Source: a virus (lineage: Duplodnaviria > Caudoviricetes). Taken from it: DNA of 64,000 bases. The translations under genes and the position numbers were made by a program. Location: the IMG/VR virus record IMGVR_UViG_3300050034_000334; one strand, 5' to 3'. Numbering within the stretch: the stretch's first letter is position 1; every line of letters starts with the position of its first letter. Under the pieces are notes generated by a model that saw nothing but the letters and a program-made list of their open reading frames with translations, had not been told where the DNA came from and ran no database searches. Below, piece after piece: positions 27,658 through 59,236 of the stretch.

Positions 27658-27664
27658 GATTTGA

Positions 27665-27693
27665 TGATACCTCAACTTTTCCCATTCCGGGAA
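27665..27693 (-). promoter_or_regulatory. Promoter motif TTCCCGG-N16-GTATCA
   Basis: Same architecture as the copies at 54150 and 57945. Confidence 0.65.
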
Positions 27694-49486: not shown

Positions 49487-49515
49487 TTCTACGGAGATTT
49501 CCCATGAAACGGGTA
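49487..49515 (-). promoter_or_regulatory. Promoter motif TACCCGT-N16-GTAGAA
   Basis: 16-nt spacer match. Confidence 0.65.
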
Positions 49516-49671
49516 ATCTCTACCTAGAATAGAGAAGTTAAAATCCGGTCAATTCGACTTCGTACTCGAAGGCATCCTGCTTGATCTTCGTTTTTGTCGA
49601 ACCGGATAGATTTCATTGTTTCCCTCCACCTCTCTCTACGGAGTTCGTGCGAGTTCCAGCTAACAAATGTC

Positions 49672-49696
49672 AAAAGAAAAGGCCTCCGAAGAGGCC
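49672..49696 (-). terminator. Intrinsic terminator of the tmRNA transcript
   Basis: ggcctc-TTCG-gaggcc followed by ttttcttttg. Confidence 0.85.
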
Positions 49697-49699
49697 CTC

Positions 49700-50112
49700 T
49701 CTTTGCCACGTGATCCCGGTTTATCCAGGACCTTCTGTTGCTAGGATCGTAACCGACCCCCGACAGCGATTAAGCTGCCATTGCCAGCGGAGCGAACGAA
49801 CGGACCGGGAAGGCCAGGACGTTGCTACGACGGGCGCTGATACCATTGTCGGTAGCAGTTATTGTTTCTGTGTCCGATTACGGAGGGCCACAGCGTACCG
49901 AGTTGTTATCTCTGGTCAGTTCCAATTGTCGAATCTGTTCGCCCCCATCATAAGCACTCTGGTTCCCAACTTCTGAACAGTCTCTTCTCCAGCGACCGTA
50001 TGAAATTCTAGGCGAAGTGGAGAGTGCTTATGGTGGAGGCGCGGGTCTATGCTAACCCGGTCCAAATGGCACATCACTTTGACTTCAGCTCCGAAGAGCA
50101 TACAACCATATA
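49700..50112 (-). ncRNA. ssrA: Circularly permuted (two-piece) tmRNA
   Basis: Acceptor piece ending cgcctccACCA (50031) lies upstream of the coding piece starting GGGGGCGAACAGATTCGAC (49946); G3-U70, A73; tag ATDNGISARRSNVLAFPVRSFAPLAMAA* (49856-49770) after AATAACT. Confidence 0.9.
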
Positions 50113-50116
50113 GATA

Positions 50117-50145
50117 GTCTACTGGCTATATTTGAATTCCAGGTA
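50117..50145 (-). promoter_or_regulatory. Promoter motif TACCTGG-N16-GTAGAC driving the tmRNA
   Basis: Variant of the recurring motif directly upstream of the acceptor piece. Confidence 0.6.
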
Positions 50146-50177
50146 CATCAGTAGTATCTTTAGAGAGGTGGCGAGAT

Positions 50178-50936
50178 TTGAACAAGCGTCTGGTATACAC
50201 GGTCTATAAAACCGTGAACAAAGCAAACGGTAAGTTCTACCTTGGAGTTCATAAGACTTCAAATCCGATGGATGAGTACTTAGGTTCTGGTACTTACATC
50301 AAGCGAGCCGTTGCAAAGTATGGTCAATCTGGTTTCACGAAAGAAATCCTCTTTGAGTACGAAACTCAAGAAGAAGGATGGGACAAGGAGGATGAACTCA
50401 TTGAGTTGAATCGGAATAATCCTCTTTGTACAAACATACGGAAAGGAGGTTCTGGAGGATTTGATTATATCAACAAAAATGGATTACTGACTATGTCAGA
50501 CGAGACTAAATCTAGGTGTACTGCTAAGCTGTTAAACTGGAGGAAAGAACATCCTAATGAAATCAAAGAGAATGCTCGAATAGCTAATCTAACTAGAAGC
50601 AAGCAGTGGAAGGGAGGTAAGCATACAACTGAAGTTTGTCATAGAATCTCAGAAGTGAGTAGTGGACCACACAATAACATGCATGACAAGAAATGGGTAC
50701 ATCATCCTGAATTGGGATTTAAGGCCGTTCTTCTAGATGAAGTACAATCGTATCTAGATGCTGGATGGCTACTTGGAAGAATTAGATATCGCAAGACTAC
50801 TCATTCAACTTATGGTAAGATTTGGATAAATAATGGAGAAAGAAACAAATTGGTGTCTAATCTAGAAGAGTTTCCAGGATGGAAACGTGGAAGATTGATG
50901 ACTATGATACAACGCAGTTTTGCTTCCATCTCTTGA
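50178..50936 (+). CDS. GIY-YIG homing endonuclease
   Basis: YTVYKTVNKANGKFYLGVHKT...YLGSG; paralog of 25607..26524. Confidence 0.88.
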   Translation: MNKRLVYTVYKTVNKANGKFYLGVHKTSNPMDEYLGSGTYIKRAVAKYGQSGFTKEILFEYETQEEGWDKEDELIELNRNNPLCTNIRKGGSGGFDYINKNGLLTMSDETKSRCTAKLLNWRKEHPNEIKENARIANLTRSKQWKGGKHTTEVCHRISEVSSGPHNNMHDKKWVHHPELGFKAVLLDEVQSYLDAGWLLGRIRYRKTTHSTYGKIWINNGERNKLVSNLEEFPGWKRGRLMTMIQRSFASIS

Positions 50937-51213
50937 AGATTGTGTCCACGCGAAACCCGAAGGTCAGAACTTGTGTCCACCACCAGCGATGAACCACAAC
51001 GGCGCATACTGTGTACGCCACGCATGGAACGCCCTCACGCAAGGGCCGTGCTGCACCTGCACGCCGGAAGGCAGCACGATCACGCTAGACGACGGCGAGT
51101 ACCTTGCGCTGACCAGGATCACCGATAGCGGCTGTCCGATACACGGGATGAGCAGCGCACACGTACCAGACCCGCACGAGGGCGCAAGCACGAAGGGAGG
51201 GCCGAAGCTGTGA
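50920..51213 (+). CDS. Cys-rich hypothetical protein, possibly 5'-truncated
   Basis: Starts the GC-richer patch; no clear RBS. Confidence 0.45.
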   Translation: MLPSLEDCVHAKPEGQNLCPPPAMNHNGAYCVRHAWNALTQGPCCTCTPEGSTITLDDGEYLALTRITDSGCPIHGMSSAHVPDPHEGASTKGGPKL

Positions 51214-51428
51214 TGGGTAGGCTGATTGGTAGTGATTTTACTCAGGTAGTCCAAACGCGCAAAACACGCTGCTCTGAGTGCGGCTTCAATATCCCTGTCG
51301 GGGATACCGCTCTGGAGTCTATCAAGGACGGCAAATGTGTCAAGCGCGTATGTGGGGAGAATTGCCGGATGGACTTCGATGATCGTTTCTGGCGTGGAGT
51401 TGCGGCCAGAGACAAGAGGCTACGCTGA
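51210..51428 (+). CDS. Small zinc-finger-like hypothetical protein
   Basis: CSECG...CG.NC; overlap-coupled. Confidence 0.65.
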   Translation: MMGRLIGSDFTQVVQTRKTRCSECGFNIPVGDTALESIKDGKCVKRVCGENCRMDFDDRFWRGVAARDKRLR

Positions 51429-51691
51429 TGACCACGCCCCTGCTCATCATCCTGATCGGCGCCGTGCCGGTAGCCATTCTGAGCGCATGGCTGGACCACG
51501 CATGGCGCAAGCGGCACCCGAAGCAGATCAGCACGGCGGAGTGGCTGCGTAGGATGCGTGCTCTTGAACCTGGAGTGCCCCCTGTGCGTCGCTACGAGGG
51601 CGCGGTAGGGGTAAGCACACCAGAACGCCCTGTGAGGGATAAGAAACTGGCGCTGGTGGTCAAACCGGCGAGAAAGAACGGGACACAATGA
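51428..51691 (+). CDS. Hypothetical protein with N-terminal TM
   Basis: TGATG overlap; hydrophobic N-terminus. Confidence 0.65.
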   Translation: MTTPLLIILIGAVPVAILSAWLDHAWRKRHPKQISTAEWLRRMRALEPGVPPVRRYEGAVGVSTPERPVRDKKLALVVKPARKNGTQ

Positions 51692-51906
51692 AGACTCCAT
51701 CAGGGATTGAAATTGAGATAGGTCAGGTTTGGCGCGGTCCTGATTATGGCGTTCAAAATCGCGTGGGACACTTTGAGGATGGTATTGTCTGGCTGTACCG
51801 GAAACATTGCAACGGGCCAGATCGCATCCCTGTGAGTCGATTCAACGGTAAGCGTGGCGGATATGCGCTGTCGGCCGGCAACGATGCGACAGAGGAGAGC
51901 AAGTGA
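51688..51906 (+). CDS. Hypothetical protein
   Basis: ATGA overlap. Confidence 0.65.
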   Translation: MKTPSGIEIEIGQVWRGPDYGVQNRVGHFEDGIVWLYRKHCNGPDRIPVSRFNGKRGGYALSAGNDATEESK

Positions 51907-51932
51907 TCGCCGCTGGTCTGGCTGCTTACTTC

Positions 51933-52424
51933 CTATCTGTGATCGCCGCTTCGCACGGCCTGTAAGGGCACGAAAGCCGGGGCGTCATGCTCCGGCTTTC
52001 GTGCCTGCTCTGCGCGATACTTCTCGAACCAGAAAACTACCGGCGTTGTATCGATACTTAATTTGCCAAAACGCATCAAGTGGTGTACGTGCGTGTAGGT
52101 TGATATTGTTGGGATGCTGTTCGCAAAATAGGTGAGTATAGAGCGGAAGCCTTCGACATTTGTATCTGCCTTTAGTATGTTGCATCTGACACAAGCAGGG
52201 TAAAGATTGTCTTTATTATCGTTTTCGGGTGAATAAAGTTTCCCGGTTTCCCGTGTCTTTGTGTACCCTGCTTTAGTAACTTCGCCGTGTACATATTCTG
52301 TTTGGCGGCGAACTGGTTCCACATGATCGGCGTGCCATTTGTCGATCAACTCCTGCCCACAATAAGCGCATCGACCGCCAAACATCATGCGGATTCTTTC
52401 GCGCTCTGGCTTGCTAAGGATCAT
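51933..52424 (-). CDS. HNH endonuclease
   Basis: FGGRCAYCG...WHADHVEP...NLYPACVRCNILK; ATGA overlap with the lysozyme. Confidence 0.88.
   Translation of the reverse strand: MILSKPERERIRMMFGGRCAYCGQELIDKWHADHVEPVRRQTEYVHGEVTKAGYTKTRETGKLYSPENDNKDNLYPACVRCNILKADTNVEGFRSILTYFANSIPTISTYTHVHHLMRFGKLSIDTTPVVFWFEKYRAEQARKPEHDAPAFVPLQAVRSGDHR
51967..52005. repeat. 14-bp perfect inverted repeat at a convergent junction (possible bidirectional terminator)
   Basis: ggcacgaaagccgg ... ccggctttcgtgcc. Confidence 0.6.
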
Positions 52425-52975
52425 TTCAACGCTCTCGCCGTCCATGCGTCTTTGTAAATGGCCAGCGCGGGATTCTTGGCAATAAGCGCATCGTAGTACG
52501 CGACACGAGATTGCTGGAAGCTGCCAACAAGTGCAGGGCCGCAAGCGTTTACCTGCTCGACGGTATTTGGACCCCACTTGCCGTCACATATCAATCTCGG
52601 CAATCCAGGATCACCGCACCAATTCACGGCTTGCTGCAAGCACCTCACAGACGCCTCACTGCCGGCATTCACGGCGAAGTCAAAGACGCGCTTTGCAACT
52701 TCGTCGCTGGTCAGTTGCGCGTACCAGGACGAGCCGTTCAAGATGCACCAGAAATGGGCTAAGTAGAACGTCTTCACGAGCGGTCCACGATCAGCTTGCG
52801 GCATGTTGGCAATCGCCGTGTACTGGAGCGGGAAGGCTCCTGAGTTGATTCCTGAGATGGCGAAGCAGTGGTCAAGCGTGCAACCTTCGGGGCACCTGTC
52901 CGTCACGGTCGCGTGCATGTCGGCGGCGTCTTCATTGCTGAGGAGCCATGAATATGCGGTTTTAAACGATGCCAT
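52421..52975 (-). CDS. Second GH108-family lysozyme
   Basis: NED...FAISGINS; FYLAHFW; VAKRVFDFAVNAG; CDGKWGPNT. Confidence 0.82.
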   Translation of the reverse strand: MASFKTAYSWLLSNEDAADMHATVTDRCPEGCTLDHCFAISGINSGAFPLQYTAIANMPQADRGPLVKTFYLAHFWCILNGSSWYAQLTSDEVAKRVFDFAVNAGSEASVRCLQQAVNWCGDPGLPRLICDGKWGPNTVEQVNACGPALVGSFQQSRVAYYDALIAKNPALAIYKDAWTARALK

Positions 52976-53002
52976 TCTCTCTCCTTAAGGCCGTACAGCG
53001 CC

Positions 53003-53506
53003 TTACTCGCAAAGCCCATACTTTGATTCGCAAGAAGGGCGTTCTGTGTTACCACGAAAAATATTGAATTGCCTTCCGCCTCGATCTGTCTTTGCCCACT
53101 CGATTACTTCATCAATGAAGTTGTACCCTGTTGACTTGATCGGGTCTATCGGGGGAAAGAACGTCACACCGCTTTCAACTTCATAGCGGCGAACTTTTTC
53201 TATCATCTCAGGATAGCGTTCAATCCAGAGGAGAATGTCTTCCTTCCCGCTATTCACACACGGAGCGCAACCGACACGGCCAAATCCAAGTTTGTAAAGA
53301 TGATTGTATTCCTGCCCATGACCCTCAATGAAATCGAAGCACATCTTTTTAGTCCAGTCAGCTAAAGGCGCATGACACATACAATCGAAGTAGGAATCAA
53401 ACCAAGAGAACGGCGTATCTTTCCGGCGCTCCGACTCATCCCTTCGCACTCCAGTGTACCTCTCATAATCCAATCCTGCGTATTCTCCCATCGGGCCGAA
53501 ATGCAA
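53003..53506 (-). pseudogene. C-terminal half of a PAPS-reductase-family protein
   Basis: YTGVRRDES, PLADWT, LYKLGFGRVGCAPCV present; N-terminal SGGKDS PP-loop absent. Confidence 0.7.
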
Positions 53507-54429: not shown

Positions 54430-54975
54430 CTAGACTGGATACGCTACTTCAGCGAGTTTCCTTCTCTTGCCGGCGGAAATAGCCGCGCACTCTTCCGGAG
54501 AGCGTTTCTTGCCCAGTCTTCCTCTAGCAAAGGACTGAAGAGTTGCCAACGCAAGCGGGTGTGGTACTCTTCCTTTCTTCAACGCAGATTGACTATCACA
54601 GAATTCCTTAGTCCTTTTCTTTCCTATATTTGCTCTGCGGATTCTTTCAACCACTTCTCTAGGCATCTTCCAACCAGACTTACCTTCTCCACCAAGGGTC
54701 TCGTTGTAGCCACTACCCAAAGAGGCAAGCGTACCTTGTGATTTGATGAACTGCTTCTCGAGATCATTCAACAAACTGACTTCGCAGCAAGCAAGTTCCT
54801 GAATGGAAAAGTTGGAAGCACCATACTTTCGGATGGCCCGATACAGAGCAAAGTCAAGTCCGCTTTTTGCGTTGGCGACATGGTCCTTCCATCTCCCAGC
54901 CACCGATTTCGAGGTTTGTCCAACATACTTCTTCTGATTCACCAAGTTGACAATAAGATAGATGAATCCATTCAT
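54430..54975 (-). CDS. GIY-YIG homing endonuclease
   Basis: GFIYLIVNLVNQKKYVGQT...GYNETLGGEG. Confidence 0.9.
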   Translation of the reverse strand: MNGFIYLIVNLVNQKKYVGQTSKSVAGRWKDHVANAKSGLDFALYRAIRKYGASNFSIQELACCEVSLLNDLEKQFIKSQGTLASLGSGYNETLGGEGKSGWKMPREVVERIRRANIGKKRTKEFCDSQSALKKGRVPHPLALATLQSFARGRLGKKRSPEECAAISAGKRRKLAEVAYPV

Positions 54976-55139
54976 ACCTGATAGGTTCCTTCGAAACAGT
55001 CTTTGACATCCTGAAGTCCACAAGTACACTTTGGAGGAGGCTTCGTTCCGCCTTCTGCCACCTTCTTGTTCCACTCGCTCACTTTGCACTCAGGTGTGTG
55101 CTCAGCTTGCTCGAGGTACTCTTGTGCCTTGCTTAGCAT
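54972..55139 (-). CDS. Small hypothetical protein (H..C...C.C)
   Basis: Overlap-coupled; start uncertain. Confidence 0.55.
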   Translation of the reverse strand: MLSKAQEYLEQAEHTPECKVSEWNKKVAEGGTKPPPKCTCGLQDVKDCFEGTYQV

Positions 55140-57907: not shown

Positions 57908-57973
57908 CTCTACTGACCTGGTTCGAAAACCGGGTACAAATCGATGATACCTCAGTTTTTGGAAATACGGGAA
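57908..57973 (-). promoter_or_regulatory. Tandem promoters: TACCCGG-N16-GTAGAG (57908-57936) and TTCCCGT-N16-GTATCA (57945-57973)
   Basis: Both motif classes, each with an exact 16-nt spacer. Confidence 0.7.
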
Positions 57974-58569: not shown

Positions 58570-59112
58570 CTAGTCCTTCCACTTTCTGTTCTTGCGACCG
58601 ATCTGCTTCATCCTCTTCATCCACTTGTCCATCAGCATCGAACGATCCAGCTTCTTCAGGTAGTCCACGATCAGGACTCCGTTCAGATGATCGATCTCAT
58701 GCTGAATGCGGCGAGCCTCTTCACCAGTGAAGGTGCGGCTGAATGGAATGAGCTTCACTTCCGGATCGTCATCCTCACCAATTGCGGTGATCGTGATTTC
58801 CCGATAGCGAGGGACTGAAACCCTGATCTGCGGAAGGCTGAGACATCCTTCCAGCTTGGCATCCTTCTCTTCAGAGTGAGCAGTGATGACTGGATTGACC
58901 AGTCCTAGTAGCATTCCACTGTTGGACTGATAGACAATGATGCGCCGGGTATCTCCTGCCTGATTGGCAGCTAAACCAGCCGCCTTATGACTATCCACCA
59001 CGATCTTCATGTAGTGCAGGATGTCGAGCGTGCCTTCGATATCAGCCGGGAAGTCCACCGGAATACACGGATGCAACAGGATTGAATCTGGGTACTGCTT
59101 TACTGGCATCAT
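58570..59112 (-). CDS. def: Peptide deformylase
   Basis: Motifs AAGLAANQAG, EGCLS, QHEIDHLNG. Confidence 0.95.
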   Translation of the reverse strand: MMPVKQYPDSILLHPCIPVDFPADIEGTLDILHYMKIVVDSHKAAGLAANQAGDTRRIIVYQSNSGMLLGLVNPVITAHSEEKDAKLEGCLSLPQIRVSVPRYREITITAIGEDDDPEVKLIPFSRTFTGEEARRIQHEIDHLNGVLIVDYLKKLDRSMLMDKWMKRMKQIGRKNRKWKD

Positions 59113-59236
59113 CTCTTTCCTTCTCTTCCTCGACATCCGGAGGGTTGCAATCCGGGCAGGGAATGGTCCCCTTGCTGTTGCTGATAAACCCAACATCCTT
59201 ACAATGCTTGCATTCGATACTCGGCTGCGGCTTCAA
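59042..59236 (-). CDS. Small zinc-finger protein
   Basis: CKHC...CPDC; GGGAGG RBS before a TTG start. Confidence 0.6.
   Translation of the reverse strand: MKPQPSIECKHCKDVGFISNSKGTIPCPDCNPPDVEEEKERDDASKAVPRFNPVASVYSGGLPG

What the first reader, a model, noticed from the sequence alone, without database searches (positions are those of the whole stretch)
49672..50145. Circularly permuted two-piece tmRNA in a phage
Seen on the minus strand, in order: promoter; acceptor piece (about 50110-50031, ending ggac-cgggt-tagcatag-acccg-cgcctcc-ACCA); intervening segment closed by a 12-bp inverted repeat (cataagcactct/agagtgcttatg); coding piece from GGGGGCG (49946); terminator. The acceptor stem has G3-U70 and A73 (Ala identity). 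Cross-piece pairings are visible (aattgg/ccattt, tgac/gtca, acaac/gttgt). The tag is a long 28 aa ending LAMAA, and the T-loop is an atypical 8 nt. Known: permuted ssrA occurs in alphaproteobacteria, some cyanobacteria and some betaproteobacteria; phage tmRNAs I know of are mostly one-piece. Inference: an independent permutation or capture, which standard annotation would probably miss.
Basis: partly seen in the sequence, partly recalled or inferred. Interest (0 to 1): 0.85.

Follow-up and report, generated by a model that had tools for sequence, protein, structure and literature searches.

The report
Two-piece tmRNA gene in peat jumbo phage
An uncultured giant phage from peat soils carries a real, rearranged ("two-piece") copy of the ribosome-rescue RNA tmRNA that is abundant in peat RNA samples; such genes are already known in phages, so it is a sound but not a new kind of find.

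Summary
On the minus strand, 50109-49672 is a circularly permuted tmRNA gene: acceptor piece ending in CCA, an 84-nt stem-closed intervening segment (IVS), coding piece, then terminator. It scores 64.8 bits on Rfam tmRNA_permuted and 61.6 on alpha_tmRNA, both above threshold. G3:U70, A73, the 8-nt T-loop and the 28-aa tag ending LAMAA are all as described. The promoter is not confirmed.

The kind is already known. Two-piece tmRNAs were reported in 53 of 133 distinct phage tmRNAs (PMC9004378). This scan has also noted them in hundreds of other genomes.

What this work adds:
- The nearest cultured relative is Tunturiibacter phage Tunturi_5, a 309-kb phage of Acidobacteriota. Sampled Terriglobia (Acidobacteriota) have one-piece tmRNA.
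- Tunturi_5 has its own permuted tmRNA with a 34-aa tag. It is not annotated and not mentioned in its paper.
- Default ARAGORN misses both genes.
- RNA contigs from four peat or permafrost metatranscriptome runs cover the gene at depth 8-617, against 0-4 on the flanks. They run through the IVS, so cutting into two pieces is not shown.
- A near-identical phage carries a deeply different allele (10-aa tag) around an almost identical IVS. In this window a homing endonuclease gene sits at the gene's 5' edge.

No close donor was found among the bacterial genomes searched. Whether this was a capture or an independent permutation stays open.

The parts
50031..50109 (-). Acceptor piece. It holds a 5' hairpin GCUC-UUCG-GAGC (50099-88), P2 3' strands (GUCA 50083-80; CCAUUUG 50069-63), GAC, the T arm, the acceptor 3' strand CGCCUCC, A73 and an encoded CCA.
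   Evidence: Sequence. Rfam alignments. 50109 is where RNA contigs of an endonuclease-free variant stop matching the window.
50042..50059 (-). T arm: 5-bp stem CGGGU/ACCCG with an atypical 8-nt loop UAGCAUAG.
   Evidence: Of 120 IMG/VR acceptor ends matched by the alpha-type pattern, 116 have the usual 7-nt loop. Relatives Tunturi_5, S allele and L314 have UUCGAUU, UUCGACU and UUCAACU.
49947..50030 (-). Intervening segment, 84 nt, a long hairpin that extends the acceptor stem. It is presumed to be cut out.
   Evidence: Fold of -28.0 kcal/mol. The block of acceptor stem strands + CCA + IVS (50041-49940) is 97 of 101 identical to the otherwise divergent S allele. Its ends UAAGCAC...GUGCUUAUGAU recur in other viral permuted tmRNAs.
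49940..49946 (-). Acceptor 5' strand GGGGGCG. G3 pairs with U70, the alanine identity pair.
49901..49928 (-). P2 5' strands of the coding piece: CAAUUGG 49928-22, UGAC 49918-15, CAACU/ACAAC 49906-01.
   Evidence: Rfam alignment and inspection. The outer helix covaries across the family: GCUAG/CUAGC, GCUCG/CGAGC, GCAUG/CAUGC, AGCUG/CAACU.
49868..49900 (-). Pseudoknot PK1 candidate: CGG/CCG and CUGUG/CACAG, ahead of the resume codon.
   Evidence: Inspection. This segment is 74% identical to Tunturi_5, against 49% +/- 4 for shuffles. The C-G pair becomes G-U in Tunturi_5.
49770..49856 (-). Tag reading frame: resume codon GCU, 28 aa ending LAMAA, stop UAA.
49704..49769 (-). 3' tail of the coding piece, with two hairpins and GCAACAGAA. 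RNA contigs end at 49704, 49729 (twice) and 49775.
49672..49696 (-). Intrinsic terminator: GGCCUC-UUCG-GAGGCC then UUUUCUUUU.
   Evidence: 100% identical in the S-allele phage.
50110..50177 (-). Spacer between the endonuclease gene and the tmRNA gene. It is the only room for a promoter in this haplotype, and none is verified.
50178..50936 (+). GIY-YIG (Seg-like) homing endonuclease gene, transcribed away from the tmRNA gene. It is absent from the S-allele phage and from RNA contigs of a W-allele variant.
   Evidence: phrog_314 E 1.6e-31. Weak Pfam GIY-YIG match, E 0.016. Absence shown.
50940..50982 (-). 43-nt backbone element. In endonuclease-free genomes it directly abuts the tmRNA gene.
   Evidence: 100% match to L123 3191-3233. 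RNA contigs X16 and X17 join it to position 50109.

Best explanation
This is a phage-encoded, circularly permuted tmRNA (ssrA) gene of an uncultured jumbo phage from peat.

Shown:
- The gene order, the alanine identity elements, an intact tag frame and a terminator.
- Membership of the permuted tmRNA family by covariance model.
- RNA of this stretch stands far above its flanks in peat and permafrost RNA libraries.
- A counterpart exists in the cultured relative Tunturi_5.

Inferred:
- One precursor is made.
- The long hairpin of the intervening segment stacks on the acceptor stem.
- RNase P cuts before G1 (49946), and the 3' end is trimmed back to the encoded CCA (50031).
- The two pieces stay paired through the acceptor stem and the P2 helices.
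- Host AlaRS charges the RNA through G3:U70.
- SmpB, for which no gene was found in these 64 kb, delivers it with EF-Tu to ribosomes stalled on broken mRNAs.
- Translation resumes at GCU and adds a 28-residue tag ending in AA, which frees the ribosome during infection.

The gene is a phage-lineage tmRNA, not a copy of the likely host's. Sampled Terriglobia (Acidobacteriota) carry one-piece tmRNAs with a 9-residue tag.
For: - Rfam RF04321 64.8 bits and RF01849 61.6 bits, both above threshold.
- 7-bp acceptor stem with G3:U70, A73 and CCA; tag frame with Ala resume codon and AA-stop.
- Family counterparts with covarying P2 helices and long tags of 26-34 aa: Tunturi_5 (86.4 bits; tag), L313/L314 (73.1 bits) and L129 (68.1 bits).
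- RNA-library contigs from 4 runs (4 studies) cover 49704-50109 at depth 617, 154, 54 and 8. The flanks laid in the same call are at 0-3.7.
- The exact stretch is held by 12 DNA runs, 11 labelled peat metagenome and 1 bioreactor metagenome.
- Phage context and kinship to Tunturi_5: helicase 52% identical; the 1606-aa protein hits only Tunturi_5.
- Terriglobia tmRNAs are one-piece.
Against: - The T-loop has 8 nt and is non-canonical.
- Model scores are less than half those of bacterial alpha tmRNAs.
- ARAGORN needs an 80% threshold to call it.
- The covariance model finds mismatches in the middle P2 helix, and free-energy folding prefers other pairings.
- All RNA evidence is from assembled contigs that run through the intervening segment. 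So no processing site, no two pieces and no strand is shown.
- The best-covered contigs come from a variant without the endonuclease gene. Expression of exactly this haplotype is therefore not shown separately.
- No SmpB gene in the window (best tblastn E 0.37).
- No promoter match.
Confidence: 0.7

Rival explanations
1. Decoy rather than rescuer. The RNA binds host SmpB, and perhaps AlaRS or EF-Tu, and so blocks or diverts the host's own trans-translation without efficient tagging. The tRNA-like-domain-only RNA of mycobacteriophage DS6A is thought to work this way.
For: - Odd T-loop and weak P2b helix.
- The tag is unlike the 9-aa tag ANTQFAYAA that I read from the Terriglobia tmRNA sequences printed.
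- The DS6A-type precedent is cited in PMC4131195 and PMC11915505.
Against: - The whole message-like part is kept: PK1, resume context, open frame and stop.
- PK1 and the resume context are the best-conserved part against Tunturi_5 and L314.
- Tags in two lineage members end in AMAA.
Confidence: 0.12
2. Decaying relic. The gene is transcribed but no longer works, and the S allele of the sister phage is the working form.
For: - The S allele scores 103 bits, has a canonical T-loop and a standard 10-aa tag.
- This allele scores 64.8 bits, and an endonuclease gene has been inserted at its 5' edge.
Against: - Identical copies are in 12 DNA runs filed between 2020 and 2025.
- The RNA is highly abundant.
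- The acceptor identity and the frame are intact.
- Long tags are the rule in the family, not the exception.
Confidence: 0.1
3. Host ssrA on a mis-assigned contig or at a prophage edge, not a phage gene.
For: tmRNA genes are common integration sites, so many viral-contig hits could be host flanks (own knowledge; PMC4383910 is listed).
Against: - The gene lies inside more than 250 kb of phage-like DNA (scan notes).
- It sits between endonuclease genes and Tunturi_5-like genes.
- The same backbone carries it in several assemblies.
- Sampled Terriglobia have one-piece tmRNAs.
- No hit in 401 alphaproteobacterial genomes.
Confidence: 0.02

Closest known systems
Phage-encoded two-piece tmRNAs (OM43 phage Melnitz, pelagimyophages and other aquatic phages; Buchholz et al. 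2022, PMC9004378)
   Same: - Permuted ssrA carried by a large lytic-type phage.
- The gene form does not match the (likely) host's own tmRNA.
- IVS ends UAARCAC...GUGCUUAUGAU are shared with many viral contigs.
   Different: - Soil/peat jumbo phage of a Tunturi_5-like lineage.
- No glutamine riboswitch hit.
- 8-nt T-loop and 28-aa tag.
- Missed by default ARAGORN, the tool used for that census.
Alphaproteobacterial two-piece tmRNA (Caulobacter type; Rfam RF01849)
   Same: - Gene order, a 5' hairpin on the acceptor piece, a GCAACAGAA tail and a tag start A-T-D-N (alpha: A-N-D-N).
- It passes the family threshold.
   Different: - The T-loop is not the alpha GGCNNUA type.
- Its RF04321 score is under half that of real alpha tmRNAs.
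- No BLAST relative in 401 alpha genomes.
- The lineage relatives do not reach the alpha model.
Permuted tmRNA of Tunturiibacter phage Tunturi_5 (PP885688.1, 157899-158195, found here; not annotated)
   Same: - Same phage lineage, permuted order and G3:U70.
- Near-identical PK1 and resume region.
- Long basic tag ending AMAA.
   Different: - Canonical T-loop, 36-nt IVS and 34-aa tag.
- The rest of the RNA is at shuffle-level identity.
One-piece phage tmRNAs (mycobacteriophage Bxz1 group, Bacillus phage G) and the tRNA-like-domain-only RNA of DS6A (PMC4131195)
   Same: A phage-borne tmRNA-related RNA in a phage with many tRNA genes.
   Different: Those are in standard gene order or lack a tag. 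This one is permuted and has a full tag frame.

Membership tests
tmRNA, permuted (two-piece) form (Rfam RF04321) | Covariance-model score at or above the curated threshold | tested here: met
   64.8 bits against 47, over the full model 1-213.
tmRNA, permuted (two-piece) form (Rfam RF04321) | Gene order: 3' half of the tRNA-like domain with CCA, then spacer, then 5' half and tag | tested here: met
   Sequence and alignment.
tmRNA, permuted (two-piece) form (Rfam RF04321) | Alanine identity: 7-bp acceptor stem with G3:U70 and A73 | tested here: met
   GGGGGCG pairs with CGCCUCC, followed by A and CCA.
tmRNA, permuted (two-piece) form (Rfam RF04321) | T arm with a 7-nt T-loop | tested here: not met
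   The 5-bp stem is present, but the loop is 8 nt, UAGCAUAG.
tmRNA, permuted (two-piece) form (Rfam RF04321) | P2 helices that hold the two pieces together | tested here: inconclusive
   - Inner helix is 6 pairs plus a U-U mismatch.
- Outer helix is 4 of 5 pairs and covaries in the family.
- Middle helix is mismatched in the model alignment, though GUCA/UGAC is available.
- Minimum-energy folding does not recover them.
tmRNA, permuted (two-piece) form (Rfam RF04321) | Tag frame: Ala resume codon after PK1, hydrophobic C-terminus ending AA, stop codon | tested here: met
   GCU at 49856, tag ending LAMAA, UAA at 49772-70.
tmRNA, permuted (two-piece) form (Rfam RF04321) | Precursor cut into two stable RNAs | not testable with these tools
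   Only assembled contigs of RNA runs were available, and they span the spacer.
tmRNA, permuted (two-piece) form (Rfam RF04321) | Alanylation, SmpB binding and tagging | not testable with these tools
   Biochemical. No SmpB gene in the window.
Alphaproteobacterial subtype (Rfam RF01849) | Model threshold and alpha-typical features (5' hairpin, GGCNNUA T-loop, ANDN tag start, GCAACAGAA tail) | tested here: inconclusive
   - 61.6 bits against 50, over the full model. Hairpin, tail and ATDN are present; the T-loop is not.
- Beta model 18.7 bits, cyano model none.
- Relatives Tunturi_5 and L314 do not reach the alpha model.
- No alpha genome match.

The most novel reading that the evidence does not exclude
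The permuted tmRNAs of this jumbo-phage lineage (this window, Tunturi_5, L313/L314) come from a permutation event separate from the alpha, beta and cyanobacterial ones. The lineage probably infects Acidobacteriota. In addition, phage populations keep two deeply divergent tmRNA alleles (28-aa and 10-aa tags). These alleles are exchanged as two patches around a shared intervening segment. Recombination stimulated by the adjacent homing endonuclease helps the exchange, perhaps to match different hosts or defences.
Probability: 0.15. Interest if true: 0.65.

Novelty: new member of a known kind. Interest (0 to 1): 0.4.

Why it matters
- It extends phage-borne two-piece tmRNAs from aquatic phages to soil and peat jumbo phages related to a cultured phage of Acidobacteriota.
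- A common detector (ARAGORN at default settings) misses both this gene and the one in Tunturi_5.
- Tunturi_5 with Tunturiibacter psychrotolerans is a laboratory phage-host pair. Processing, charging and the unusually long tag could be tested there.
- The high RNA signal in field samples suggests the RNA is made in quantity during natural infections.
- The two alleles on one backbone give a natural experiment on what a phage tmRNA is for.

Tried and rejected
- blastn of the locus against 50,697 phage records: no match.
- A pattern for the IVS start in IMG/VR: apart from the window's own contig, only the S-allele and L129 contigs were real tmRNAs; the other hits were coding sequence.
- A PK1/resume pattern scanned over 185,579 species genomes. 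Apart from chance coding hits it found only one-piece Terriglobia tmRNAs. I first took this as a host-capture signal.
- A local-alignment panel of 147 tmRNAs (Acidobacteriota, alpha and beta two-piece, Burkholderiales, 28 from other bacterial groups, viral alpha-like): no group stood out as donor for any segment of W, S or Tunturi_5. That reading is dropped.
- The S allele looked beta-type (67.9 bits). However, real beta two-piece tmRNAs score 169-296 bits, and ordinary tmRNAs reach about 50 on that model. It is left unassigned.
- BLASTP of the two long tags: not significant.
- The endonuclease-free W junction was not found in IMG/VR, so it is known only from RNA-run contigs.
- The 12-mer shared upstream of both tRNA arrays is not upstream of the tmRNA gene.
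- Keiler 2000 and Sharkady & Williams 2004 could not be read.

Full report
**1. The observation**

- The acceptor piece ends GAC, CGGGU, UAGCAUAG, ACCCG, CGCCUCC, ACCA, with the CCA ending at 50031.
- An 84-nt intervening segment (IVS, 50030-49947) is closed by a 12-bp inverted repeat.
- GGGGGCG at 49946 opens the coding piece.
- The acceptor stem has 7 pairs with G3:U70, followed by A73.

Rfam places the stretch in tmRNA_permuted (RF04321: 64.8 bits, threshold 47) and in alpha_tmRNA (RF01849: 61.6 bits, threshold 50, whole model). The tag frame from GCU (49856) gives ATDNGISARRSNVLAFPVRSFAPLAMAA and a stop. A GC-rich hairpin with a U tract follows at 49696-49672.

ARAGORN finds ten tRNAs in the window but not this gene. 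It misses the gene at default and 90% thresholds, and calls it, with the same tag, at 80%. No sigma-70-like promoter passes the scan.

**2. Context**

The window is phage DNA.
- It holds at least six GIY-YIG and two HNH homing endonuclease genes, a terminase-small-like gene, endolysin-like genes, a peptide deformylase and two tRNA arrays.
- The window's own assembly is not held. An IMG/VR fragment with the identical tmRNA gene is rated 7% complete at 20.8 kb. Notes from this scan place at least 68 kb before and 120 kb after the window.

The helicase is 52% identical to that of Tunturiibacter phage Tunturi_5. The 1606-aa protein matches no other phage record. Tunturi_5 is a 309-kb myovirus of an acidobacterium from tundra soil (PMC11924767).

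The 14 DNA runs that hold the stretch are 13 labelled peat metagenome and 1 labelled bioreactor metagenome. I therefore take the host to be a member of the Acidobacteriota, at roughly 60%. This is an inference from kinship and habitat. Terriglobia tmRNA genes are of the ordinary one-piece form, with tag ANTQFAYAA as I read it from those sequences.

**3. A lineage trait**

- Tunturi_5 has a permuted tmRNA of its own. It scores 86.4 bits on RF04321 and lies at 157899-158195 in a 667-nt gap without annotation.
- Its paper never mentions tmRNA, and default ARAGORN misses it.
- It keeps G3:U70, has a canonical T-loop, a 36-nt IVS and a 34-aa tag ending AFAMAA.
- Against the window's gene, only the PK1/resume segment is clearly alike: 74% against 49% +/- 4 for shuffles.
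- A pattern from that segment found one more member, L313/L314. It scores 73.1 bits and has a 26-aa tag starting ATSGING.
- Another large-phage contig, L129, has a 28-aa tag. Long tags are thus usual here; the commonest bacterial tag length is 10 aa (PMC11915505).
- The outer cross-piece helix changes on both sides while staying paired: GCUAG/CUAGC, GCUCG/CGAGC, GCAUG/CAUGC. In the window it is AGCUG/CAACU, with one mismatch.

**4. Expression**

Six peat or permafrost metatranscriptome runs hold 58-67% of the stretch's sampled words. I laid four of them, from four studies, on 49500-50350.

| Run | Contig span | Depth |
|---|---|---|
| X16 | 49704-50109 | 617 |
| X17 | 49729-50109 | 154 |
| X18 | 49775-50095 | 54 |
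| X15 | 49729-50083 | 8 |

Both flanks in the same runs show depth 0-3.7. That contrast argues for a stable, abundant RNA rather than carried-over DNA.

The limits are real:
- These are contigs. They run through the IVS.
- They show neither strand, nor ends, nor cutting.
- Adapter sequence abuts 49704 (X16) and 49775 (X18), which hints at fragment ends there.
- The X16 and X17 contigs continue upstream of 50109 into the 43-nt element that lies at 50982-50940 in the window. They therefore come from a variant without the endonuclease gene.

**5. How it most likely works**

Sections 1 to 4 cover what is shown. The steps below are inferred.
- RNase P cuts before G1.
- The 3' end is trimmed back to the encoded CCA.
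- The pieces stay paired through the acceptor stem and P2.
- Host AlaRS charges the RNA through G3:U70.
- SmpB and EF-Tu deliver it to stalled ribosomes, where the 28-aa tag is added.

No SmpB gene lies in these 64 kb, but most of the genome was not visible to me.

Rivals:
- A decoy that soaks up host SmpB. The odd T-loop fits this. The well-kept PK1, resume context and tag frame argue against it.
- A decaying relic. Identical copies in many samples and strong RNA signal argue against it.
- Host contamination, which the context excludes.

**6. Origin**

The gene passes the alpha model. It has an alpha-like 5' hairpin, a GCAACAGAA tail and a tag start ATDN, where alpha tmRNAs have ANDN.

Several results weaken an alpha assignment:
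- Real alpha tmRNAs score 142-154 bits on RF04321.
- 401 sampled alphaproteobacterial genomes give no real BLAST match.
- Its relatives do not reach the alpha model.
- A panel of 147 tmRNAs points to no donor group.

A recent capture from any of the bacterial genomes searched is not supported. An old alpha origin and a separate permutation both remain possible.

**7. Two alleles and an endonuclease gene (a side finding)**

A phage with 96-99% identical flanks (L123, L163, L165) carries another allele, here called S. It scores 103 bits, has a canonical T-loop and the tag AEPYALPMAA.

Identity between the window's allele (W) and S, by segment:

| Segment | Identity |
|---|---|
| Acceptor piece | 59% |
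| Acceptor strands + CCA + IVS | 96% (97 of 101) |
| Coding piece up to the stop | 47% |
| Tail after the tag | 55% |
| Terminator and onward | 100% |

Spacers normally drift fastest. This pattern therefore indicates patchwise replacement by recombination, not point mutation.

In the window, an 831-nt cassette with a Seg-like GIY-YIG endonuclease gene (phrog_314, E 1.6e-31) lies exactly between the 43-nt backbone element and the acceptor piece. Homologues of that enzyme sit beside tRNA genes in many viral contigs, and beside the tmRNA gene in L129. A link between the endonuclease and the allele exchange is only a hypothesis. A W allele without the cassette exists, but is so far seen only in RNA-run contigs.

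**8. Novelty**

- Two-piece tmRNAs in phages are in print: PMC9004378 counts 53 of 133 distinct phage tmRNAs.
- tmRNA and SmpB in huge phages are described in PMC7162821.
- 79 phage tmRNA sequences are in the 2025 database (PMC11915505).
- This scan has noted phage permuted tmRNAs in hundreds of other genomes.

So this is a new member of a known kind. It has useful extras: a cultured relative, field RNA evidence, a detector blind spot and an allele pair.

Noticed in passing
window 49940-50041 compared with L123 3286-3385: Two deeply divergent tmRNA alleles sit on near-identical phage backbones. The mature parts are 47-59% identical, while the intervening segment block is 96% and the terminator 100% identical. 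This is a recombination mosaic in which the spacer is the conserved part.
   Followed up: partly
window 50110-50940: An 831-nt cassette with a GIY-YIG homing endonuclease gene is inserted exactly at the 5' edge of the tmRNA gene. It is absent from the S-allele phage and from RNA-run contigs of a W-allele variant. Homologues flank tRNA genes in many viral contigs, and the tmRNA gene in L129.
   Followed up: partly
L277 1501-1797 (Tunturi_5, PP885688.1 157899-158195): The cultured jumbo phage Tunturi_5 has a permuted tmRNA gene with a 34-aa tag. It is not annotated and not mentioned in the paper, and default ARAGORN misses it.
   Followed up: yes
window 50982-53505 and 54443-54980: About 2.5 kb and a further 0.5 kb are absent from the 96-99% identical relative L123. 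The larger block holds an HNH endonuclease gene (51933-52577), an endolysin-like ORF and the end of a PAPS-reductase-like ORF. The smaller lies within a GIY-YIG endonuclease gene (54430-55089). This is an endonuclease-rich variable region.
   Followed up: partly
window 49537-49616 (minus): The small ORF just after the tmRNA terminator has a good ribosome-binding site (GGAGGG). Relative to L123 it carries a 62-nt deletion. L123 has an intact 47-codon ORF; here the ORF is frameshifted to 26 codons.
   Followed up: no
window 27663-27674 and 57943-57954 (minus): The exact 12-mer TGAGGTATCATC occurs only twice in the window, both times upstream of a tRNA array. It may be a phage promoter element. 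It is not upstream of the tmRNA gene.
   Followed up: partly
window 58570-59196 (minus): A peptide deformylase gene (phrog_2890, E 1.4e-27) lies next to the Pro/Phe tRNA cluster. It is another translation-related gene of the phage.
   Followed up: no
window 49916-50101 (minus): A 61-codon ATG ORF overlaps the acceptor piece and the whole intervening segment. It has no ribosome-binding site that I can see, and its start lies in sequence that differs in the S allele. It is probably spurious.
   Followed up: no
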